Of a DNA stretch of 21,871 nt, positions 1-634 are shown one piece after another (position 1 is the first letter of the stretch; every line of letters starts with the position of its first letter). Both the position numbers and the translations under genes were made by a program. The notes under the pieces are model-generated. The model was given only the letters and a program-made list of their open reading frames with translations. It did no database searches and was not told the DNA's origin. The DNA is from a candidate division WOR-3 bacterium (GTDB taxonomy: Bacteria; Hydrothermota; Tepidihabitantia; SM23-42; JAOAFX01): assembly GCA_039802265.1 (NCBI GenBank), contig JBDRWI010000041.1, positions 1 through 21,871 of the forward strand, given 5' to 3'.

Positions 1-464
1 AGGAGGTGGAGATTGTGGGTTTTGGTAAGCAGTTTAAGACGGTGGCGACTTCGTTAGAGATGTTTCGTAAGACATTGGATAGTGCGGAGGCTGGTGATAA
101 TGTGGGTATTTTGTTGCGGGGTGTGGGTAAGGATGAGGTTTATCGTGGGATGGTGGTGAGTAAGCCGGGTACGATTCATCCGCATCATCGGTTTAATGCG
201 GAGGTTTATGTTTTGAAGAAGGAGGAGGGTGGTCGGCATACGCCGTTTTTCAGTGGTTACAGGCCGCAGTTTTATATGCGGACGACGGATGTGACGGGTG
301 TGGTGAAGTTGCCTGAGGGTCGGGAGATGGTGATGCCGGGTGATAATGCGAATTTGGAGGTGGAGTTGATTACGCCGGTGGCGATTGAGCAGGGTTTGCG
401 TTTTGCGATTCGTGAGGGTGGTAAGACGGTTGGTGCGGGTGTGGTCACCAAGATAATAGAATAA
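1..464 (+). CDS. tuf: Elongation factor Tu, C-terminal part (5'-truncated by the window edge)
   Basis: Frame open from base 3. EF-Tu motifs [57 protein letters not shown]. The GTG at 6 is an internal Val, not the start. Confidence 0.98.
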
Positions 465-487
465 TCGATTTAATGAAGGGAAGATAG

Positions 488-634
488 ATGCGGATTATAA
501 TAACCCTTGCCTGCACCAGTTGTAATAACCGAAACTATACAACGACAAAGGACAAGAAAAAACAGGCACGATTGGAGATTAAGAAATACTGTAAATTCTG
601 TCGGAAGCACACGGTGCATAAGGAAGTAAAATGA
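488..634 (+). CDS. rpmG: 50S ribosomal protein L33, zinc-ribbon (CxxC...CxxC) form, 48 aa; absent from the ORF track
   Basis: Hand translation [48 protein letters not shown]. Purine-rich RBS (gaagggaag). Canonical position between tuf and secE. Confidence 0.96.

What the first reader, a model, noticed from the sequence alone, without database searches (positions are those of the whole stretch)
3..464. Extreme G/T-only third-position codon usage confined to tuf, with a sharp boundary six codons before the stop
Seen (hand count): 143 of 147 codons in 3-443 end in G or T; the exceptions are TTA, ACA, TTC and TAC. All 9 Leu codons are TTR, with no CTN. From base 444, five of the last six sense codons end in A/C (GTC ACC AAG ATA ATA GAA). 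The adjacent rpmG has 24 of 48 codons ending in A/C, and rplK/rplL are visibly mixed. Replication strand or expression level alone therefore does not explain it, and translational selection normally favours TTC/TAC/AAC. Known: tuf is often duplicated and the copies are homogenised by gene conversion. Inference: the biased tract marks the segment shared between two tuf copies, and a conversion-associated process drives sense-strand C->T and A->G changes (a deamination-like spectrum) to saturation, sparing the copy-specific tail.
Basis: partly seen in the sequence, partly recalled or inferred. Interest (0 to 1): 0.75.

Follow-up and report, generated by a model that had tools for sequence, protein, structure and literature searches.

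The report
G/T-saturated duplicated EF-Tu gene
The two near-identical copies of this hot-spring bacterium's EF-Tu gene carry G or T at 97% of third codon positions, a bias seen in its phylum only where the gene is duplicated, which likely makes it the footprint of a one-strand bias in copy-to-copy repair rather than ordinary codon choice.

Summary
Observation confirmed: 143 of 147 codons end in G/T, the highest of 1,761 ORFs. It is not a chimera. A second tuf 3' end lies before rpsJ on contig C62, identical over window 341-467, and public assemblies fork at 467/468. So tuf is duplicated, but the A/C tail is shared, not copy-specific. In the phylum, 0 of 44 single-copy tuf genes exceed GT3 0.62, against 25 of 35 two-copy ones; 10 two-copy genomes show no clear bias. 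G/T-rich tuf, mostly with a less biased or A/C 3' end, also turned up in 37 genomes spanning at least 7 phyla. In this genome an 840-base cassette shared at 96-100% by two unrelated peptidase genes is equally saturated. It works like GRINS (Nivina 2021). I found no paper describing tuf as one. The data favour conversion causing the skew. The likeliest mechanism (inferred) is G·T wobble pairs made or tolerated on the invading strand; plain deamination fits less well. This scan noted the same pattern earlier on other DNA, and the GRINS lead came from those notes.

The parts
3..464 (+). 3' part of tuf (EF-Tu domains 2-3, 153 codons + TAA), copy in front of rpmG-tRNA-Trp-secE-nusG; cut by the contig start
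   Evidence: Pfam PF03144 and PF03143; TIGR00485 positions 242-394
3..443 (+). G/T-saturated tract: 143 of 147 third positions G/T; mean absolute GC skew 0.53 and TA skew 0.20 over 1-467
444..464 (+). A/C-ending tail (5 of 6 sense codons), shared by both tuf copies
   Evidence: relatives
341..467 (+). stretch identical (127 of 127) to the second tuf 3' end on C62:12764-12890, upstream of rpsJ; the repeat ends at 467
   Evidence: fork at 467/468 in 4 of 4 runs laid
488..634 (+). rpmG (L33): first single-copy gene after the repeat, unbiased (GT3 0.49); serves as control

Best explanation
This is the 3' end of one of two near-identical tuf copies, and repeated gene conversion between them has likely driven the sense strand's silent sites to G and T because the copying is likely biased to one strand. 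Shown: the duplication, the shared tail, the link to copy number, and equally saturated shared cassettes in unrelated genes. Inferred: conversion starts mostly with the sense strand invading and being extended (for example from breaks at co-directional forks), and G·T wobble pairs made or tolerated in that step are kept on the new strand, turning A into G and C into T about equally. Near the 3' edge of the homology that strand can no longer contribute, so the bias fades or flips to A/C in the last 5-25 codons and stops at the repeat's end. It works like a GRINS element in a housekeeping gene.
For: Second copy identical to base 467. Shared unitig depth is near the sum of the two branches in 3 of 4 runs: 14.9 vs 8.5+6.2; 45-50 vs 22.5+20.3; 14.6 vs 5.3+7.4; the fourth is 13.2 vs 8.8+9.3. 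Single-copy tuf body GT3 is 0.40-0.62 (n=44, none more than 0.10 above neighbours). Two-copy is 0.46-0.97 (n=35; 25 above 0.62; 23 of 33 more than 0.10 above neighbours); family-level Mann-Whitney p = 8e-5, 9 vs 25 groups. Sister contrast G131 (one copy, 0.53) vs G132 (two, 0.80). Four genomes with one listed match and high GT3 proved to hide a second tuf tail at a contig end. 27 of 37 genomes found by a G/T-only tuf pattern show two or more tuf 3' ends. On C10 a C25 peptidase and an M14 carboxypeptidase share 280 codons at 96-100% identity with GT3 0.85-0.97; flanks are 53-90% identical with GT3 0.53-0.90. A>G and C>T are equally complete at two-fold sites, 0.97 and 0.93. The first 30 codons of the next gene are unbiased, 216 of 449. 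RecA filaments are most stable on TGG and least on CCA repeats (PMC3763553, passages).
Against: Duplication is not sufficient. 10 of 35 two-copy genomes are at or below 0.62, though their second tails are 98-100% identical where compared (3 genomes). Codons in this genome's repeats of 95% identity or more have GT3 0.53-0.55, and only 6 of 40 repeat segments over 500 bp reach GT3 0.70. The strongest values come from one clade. Only 4 independent pairs exist on well-supported branches (mean 2.6 same way, 0 opposite, 1.4 no difference; cannot reach significance). Some strong tracts have no partner in this 89%-complete assembly (C28; most of C39). Which strand is favoured, replication or transcription, is unresolved: 9 of 13 contigs agree with replication, and the window's own contig cannot be assigned. 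No conversion event or wobble step was observed. The GGT-over-GGG and NCG-over-NCT preferences need an extra context effect or selection.
Confidence: 0.55

Rival explanations
1. Conversion-linked, but by chemical deamination: the sense strand is held single-stranded in recombination intermediates and suffers C>U and A>hypoxanthine changes.
For: Same links to duplication and polarity. Two-fold sites go to T and G. The organism lives in hot springs. Transversion divergence from the same-genus relative is not raised (18 of 67 vs 295 of 1,449, p = 0.22), so a narrow class of changes is involved.
Against: Adenine deaminates far more slowly than cytosine (recalled), yet G-over-A is as complete here. 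In G195, G213 and G057 it is nearly the only component (T share 0.79 vs 0.75, 0.79 vs 0.79, 0.57 vs 0.53 in neighbours; G share 0.71 vs 0.42, 0.57 vs 0.36, 0.81 vs 0.57). Selection for C-ending codons could mask a T rise there. The purine share at NCN sites rises from 0.44-0.55 to 0.86-1.0, which transitions alone do not give.
Confidence: 0.2
2. Skew comes first and is selected or self-propagating: G/T-rich alleles are better recombination substrates and so spread between copies (the order of events proposed in the GRINS paper), without any mutational bias.
For: RecA preference for TG-rich single strands (PMC3763553); GRINS discussion (PMC8256042). 15 of 20 four-fold differences from the same-genus relative are G<->T, as if A and C were filtered out.
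Against: No pre-existing skew in any of 44 single-copy tuf genes. In break repair the invading strand is normally the recipient (PMC5485169), so a binding preference need not spread the allele. It does not by itself explain the 3' flip.
Confidence: 0.15
3. Translational or mRNA-level selection specific to the most highly expressed gene, or transcription-coupled mutation.
For: tuf is very highly expressed (established knowledge). Strong tracts are mostly sense-oriented, 15 G/T vs 1 A/C over 40 bits. A short G/T patch lies in recA, which has no partner in the assembly.
Against: Single-copy tuf genes, which carry the whole load, are unbiased. Ribosomal-protein genes are unbiased. Sharply bounded tracts occur inside peptidases and transposases. 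Folding energy is ordinary, -23.5 vs -22.6 +/- 2.2 kcal per 100 nt.
Confidence: 0.07
4. Assembly chimera with another organism's tuf.
For: The fragment is at a contig end, and many foreign tuf contigs lay on it at low stringency.
Against: A contig of run X3 covers 218-467 with no difference. Both junctions occur in 4 of 4 runs from 2 studies. All 21 genomes of the order examined have body GT3 0.74-0.97. The protein groups with its own family in the tree.
Confidence: 0.01

Closest known systems
[quoted passage not shown] 2021, PMC8256042)
   Same: Long near-identical intragenomic repeats with correlated GC and TA skews, strongest at third codon positions, abrupt G+T / C+A switches, tied to gene conversion, also found in transposases; mechanism unknown.
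   Different: Described mainly for polyketide synthases and mobile genes; tuf and EF-Tu do not occur in the parts read or in the one supplement file searched. Here the host is an essential housekeeping gene, so no diversifying role is plausible. The polarity is fixed (G/T body, A/C or neutral 3' end). The one-copy/two-copy contrast points to conversion causing skew, the reverse of the order that paper proposes.
tufA/tufB concerted evolution by gene conversion (Paulsson et al. 2017, PMC5485169; Wang and Chen 2018, PMC6053082)
   Same: Two copies, one before rpsJ and one before rpmG-secE-nusG, with identity ending at the gene's bounds.
   Different: In what I read of these papers there is no base-composition bias. 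The Salmonella model has conversion starting uniformly and running equally both ways, which alone predicts no strand polarity.
Leading-strand G+T skew and GC-biased gene conversion (recalled)
   Same: G over C and T over A on one strand; a recombination-linked bias at silent sites.
   Different: Replication skew here is about 0.05 in GT3 against 0.43 for tuf. gBGC is strand-symmetric and would favour C over T, whereas T/(T+C) is 0.93 here.

Membership tests
GRINS | Duplicated region longer than 500 bp | tested here: inconclusive
   Only 467 bases of one copy and 127 of the other are assembled. Depth is about double over 1-467, and a 514-base unbranched contig ends at the fork in run X5. Whole-gene pairs of about 1,200 bases are assembled in other genomes. 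Likely met, not shown for this genome.
GRINS | Over 80% DNA identity to another region of the genome | tested here: met
   127 of 127 identical to C62
GRINS | Mean absolute GC skew and TA skew both above 0.15 (150-nt windows, step 30) | tested here: met
   0.53 and 0.20 over window 1-467. Four relatives of the order also pass; two milder two-copy genomes (G042, G132) fail on TA skew (0.08, 0.11).
GRINS | Correlated skews concentrated at third codon positions | tested here: met
   Both skews positive in all 11 windows; positions 1 and 2 are close to single-copy tuf, position 3 is 86% G/T vs 54%
GRINS | Undergoes gene conversion | not testable with these tools
   Inferred from identity of copies in different contexts across divergent genomes; no event observed
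Concertedly evolving tufA/tufB pair | Two copies in distinct conserved contexts, near-identical within a genome, identity ending at gene bounds | tested here: met
   Before rpmG (window) and before rpsJ (C62); identity ends 3 bases after the stop. The 5' ends are not assembled.
GC-biased gene conversion | Strand-symmetric gain of G and C over A and T | tested here: not met
   C is removed: T/(T+C) 0.93 at two-fold sites

The most novel reading that the evidence does not exclude
Intragenomic gene conversion in many bacterial phyla carries a strand-polar G/T (wobble-pair) drive, a counterpart of GC-biased conversion that can override codon selection in the cell's most expressed gene. It is the cause of GRINS, and its polarity (G/T body, A/C at the 3' edge of homology) records which strand invades.
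Probability: 0.4. Interest if true: 0.8.

Novelty: new variant of a known kind. Interest (0 to 1): 0.6.

Why it matters
The origin of GRINS is stated as unknown (PMC8256042). tuf gives a universal gene with repeated natural gains and losses of a second copy and an established laboratory conversion assay, so the direction of cause and the responsible step become directly testable. It also warns that tuf, a standard reference for optimal codons and a phylogenetic marker, can carry a recombination-linked compositional bias. And G/T saturation of tuf can flag an unassembled second copy in draft genomes.

Tried and rejected
Copy-specific tail: rejected. Chimera: rejected. mRNA folding: not unusual. 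Loss of repair genes as the reason some two-copy genomes lack the bias: mutS and ruvA were each found in 40 of 41 genomes, biased and unbiased alike. Leading/lagging assignment: inconclusive in this genome and in G229, a gapped scaffold in which nusG was not found, so it cannot count as single-copy. Raised overall mutation rate in tuf: not seen. A/C bias running on into the next gene: not seen. G147 was first counted as two-copy, then dropped because both its tuf ends precede rpmG; the tree test still included it. G114 was moved to single-copy. 17 genomes were left unclassified, 10 of them above 0.62. The viral-contig scan (49 loci) was only a format trial and was not analysed. Ten literature searches found no paper on G/T saturation of tuf. 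The library lacks most subscription papers, and a report on G-rich codon ends of Thermus tuf mentioned in an earlier scan note could not be found.

Full report
Observation. The window is the start of contig C41 of an 89%-complete, 2.3-Mb draft genome held in hot-spring metagenomes. Bases 3-464 are the last 153 codons of tuf. The count is exact: 143 of 147 codons in 3-443 end in G or T, Leu is TTG/TTA only, and five of the last six sense codons end in A or C. The fragment ranks first of 1,761 ORFs (0.939; mean 0.524, SD 0.045; next 0.754). The nine downstream translation and transcription genes measured lie at 0.41-0.59.

Copy number and the tail. A second tuf 3' end closes contig C62, in front of rpsJ, identical to window 341-467. 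In four public assemblies from two studies the graph forks at that point. The shared piece has about the summed depth of the two branches in three runs and less in the fourth. A contig of run X3 spans 218-467 with no difference. The best runs may include the source sample. So the gene is duplicated, it is not a chimera, and the tail belongs to both copies. The 5' two thirds of tuf are not assembled.

Relatives. All 21 genomes of the same order that were measured have body GT3 0.74-0.97, against neighbours at 0.41-0.61. Pooled over 18 of them, GT3 stays near 0.85 along the gene and falls over the last 25 codons to 0.21-0.33. The last 12 codons are 65 of 216 G/T, against 237 of 516 in single-copy tuf, and the first 30 codons of the next gene are unbiased. 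Many tail codons are C-ending (GGC, GCC, GTC, ACC), which selection for weak mRNA structure would not favour. The order is one clade, so this tail contrast is not independent evidence.

One copy versus two. I searched 225 genomes of the phylum (189 with a match) and hand-picked 97 to cover families. Copy number was set from listed 3' ends and, for most, by looking for tuf at the other site, before rpsJ or before rpmG-nusG. Result: 44 single-copy, body GT3 0.40-0.62, none more than 0.10 above neighbours; 35 two-copy, 0.46-0.97, 25 above 0.62; 17 unclassified; 1 dropped. The 0.62 line was chosen after seeing the data. Outside the window's order, 9 of 19 two-copy genomes, in 7 families, are above it. 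By family, p = 8e-5. Four high-GT3 genomes with one listed match had a hidden second tail, but so did four with low GT3 (G051, G124, G130, G208). On a tuf protein tree copy state changes at least 7 times; four independent pairs never go the opposite way but are too few for significance.

Beyond the phylum. A 54-base G/T-only tuf pattern matched 45 loci in 37 GTDB genomes, labelled Thermodesulfobacteriota, Myxococcota, Nitrospirota, Acidobacteriota, Pseudomonadota, Planctomycetota and Zixiibacteriota, or unlabelled. Body GT3 is 0.65-0.95 against neighbours at 0.41-0.67, and most tails drop to background or below. These loci were selected for the bias, so they show spread and not frequency. 27 of 37 show two or more tuf 3' ends; the other 10 are draft assemblies. 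Where both copies are assembled they are 98-100% identical across the gene (8 pairs from this scan and 2 whole-gene pairs from the phylum; one partial pair is 96%).

Same genome. A tract scan found 36 G/T and 11 A/C tracts (random expectation 2-6 and 3-7; one A/C hit is the antisense of tuf); above 40 bits there are 15 and 1. They lie in secreted paralog families and transposases. The clearest is a cassette shared by two unrelated peptidase genes on C10, where near-identity and saturation have nearly the same bounds. Expression level cannot explain that. But most repeats are not biased, and some tracts have no assembled partner.

Spectrum. Two-fold sites: T/(T+C) 0.93, G/(G+A) 0.97. Four-fold sites: NCN codons end in G 22 of 26 times and Gly is GGT 18 of 19, so the purine share moves from its genome value. 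Against the same-genus genome, 15 of 20 four-fold differences are G<->T, transversion divergence is normal, and two-fold differences are reduced (4 of 45 vs 288 of 1,219). The gene keeps evolving inside the G/T space while A and C are removed. Equal strength of A>G and C>T, and cases where only G rises, fit G·T wobble pairing on a new or invading strand better than cytosine deamination. That step is inference. Strand choice was not resolved, and mutS and ruvA presence does not separate biased from unbiased genomes.

Known systems. An earlier scan note led me to GRINS. I read parts 1-4 of 5 of PMC8256042 and searched its one supplement file held as text (figures not visible, and its gene-family figure S7 could list translation genes). 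The window meets the skew and identity criteria (0.53, 0.20); the 500-base length is likely but not shown. For tuf conversion I read part 1 of 5 of PMC5485169 and passages of PMC6053082; for RecA preference passages of PMC3763553; for later GRINS work passages of PMC10394414. Ten searches found no description of G/T-saturated tuf, within a library that lacks most subscription papers. Earlier notes of this scan report the same pattern in other genomes; they are unchecked AI notes and are not counted as support.

Verdict. A real, inherited, duplication-linked recoding: a GRINS-like element in an essential gene, with a fixed polarity and a natural one-copy control. A link to conversion is probable (about 0.8-0.9 across the first three explanations); the wobble-pair step about 0.55. 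New variant of a known kind; interest 0.6.

Noticed in passing
G000:C10:30592-31785 and 34086-35282 (L275): A C25 peptidase gene and an M14 carboxypeptidase gene share a cassette (1,204 bases at 92.6%, core 280 codons at 96-100%) with GT3 0.85-0.97 and skews 0.36-0.38 / 0.26. It is a fully assembled element that meets the GRINS definition.
   Followed up: yes
G000:C39, C94, C106, C79, C28, C49, C63, C108: Further G/T-saturated tracts of 80-430 codons in large secreted proteins (C25 peptidases, FG-GAP, beta-propeller, Ig-like domains). Several end in a short A/C run. Those on C28 and most of C39 have no partner in the assembly.
   Followed up: partly
G000:C6:50515-51351, C40:7786-8946, C83:7026-8243: Transposases with internal polarity: the C6 DDE gene is A/C-rich at the 5' end and G/T-rich at the 3' end (opposite to tuf); C40 is G/T with an A/C tail; the IS91-family gene on C83 is A/C-rich over most of its length (GT3 0.31, lowest in the genome).
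   Followed up: partly
G000:C13:12567-13598: The recA-like gene (named from its translation by eye) has G/T-rich patches: 19 codons all G/T, a 50-codon window at 0.82, no repeat partner. This is near the detection threshold.
   Followed up: no
window 11452 onward; G000:C28, C22, C62: The str operon is broken up: rpoC is not followed by rpsL-rpsG-fusA, rpsG and fusA lie on other contigs, and fusA is mid-contig with no tuf after it.
   Followed up: partly
L072 / L268 (G064:C72): A second, diverged tuf (79% DNA identity to the main copy); neither copy is biased (GT3 0.50 and 0.52). This fits a need for ongoing conversion.
   Followed up: partly
G027 and G034: Three tuf 3' ends each in gapped single-scaffold genomes; may be a third copy or mis-scaffolding.
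   Followed up: no
L007, L008, L009, L013, L021: The tuf stop overlaps the rpsJ start (TAATG) in many relatives, so the tail may also be constrained as a translation-initiation region.
   Followed up: no
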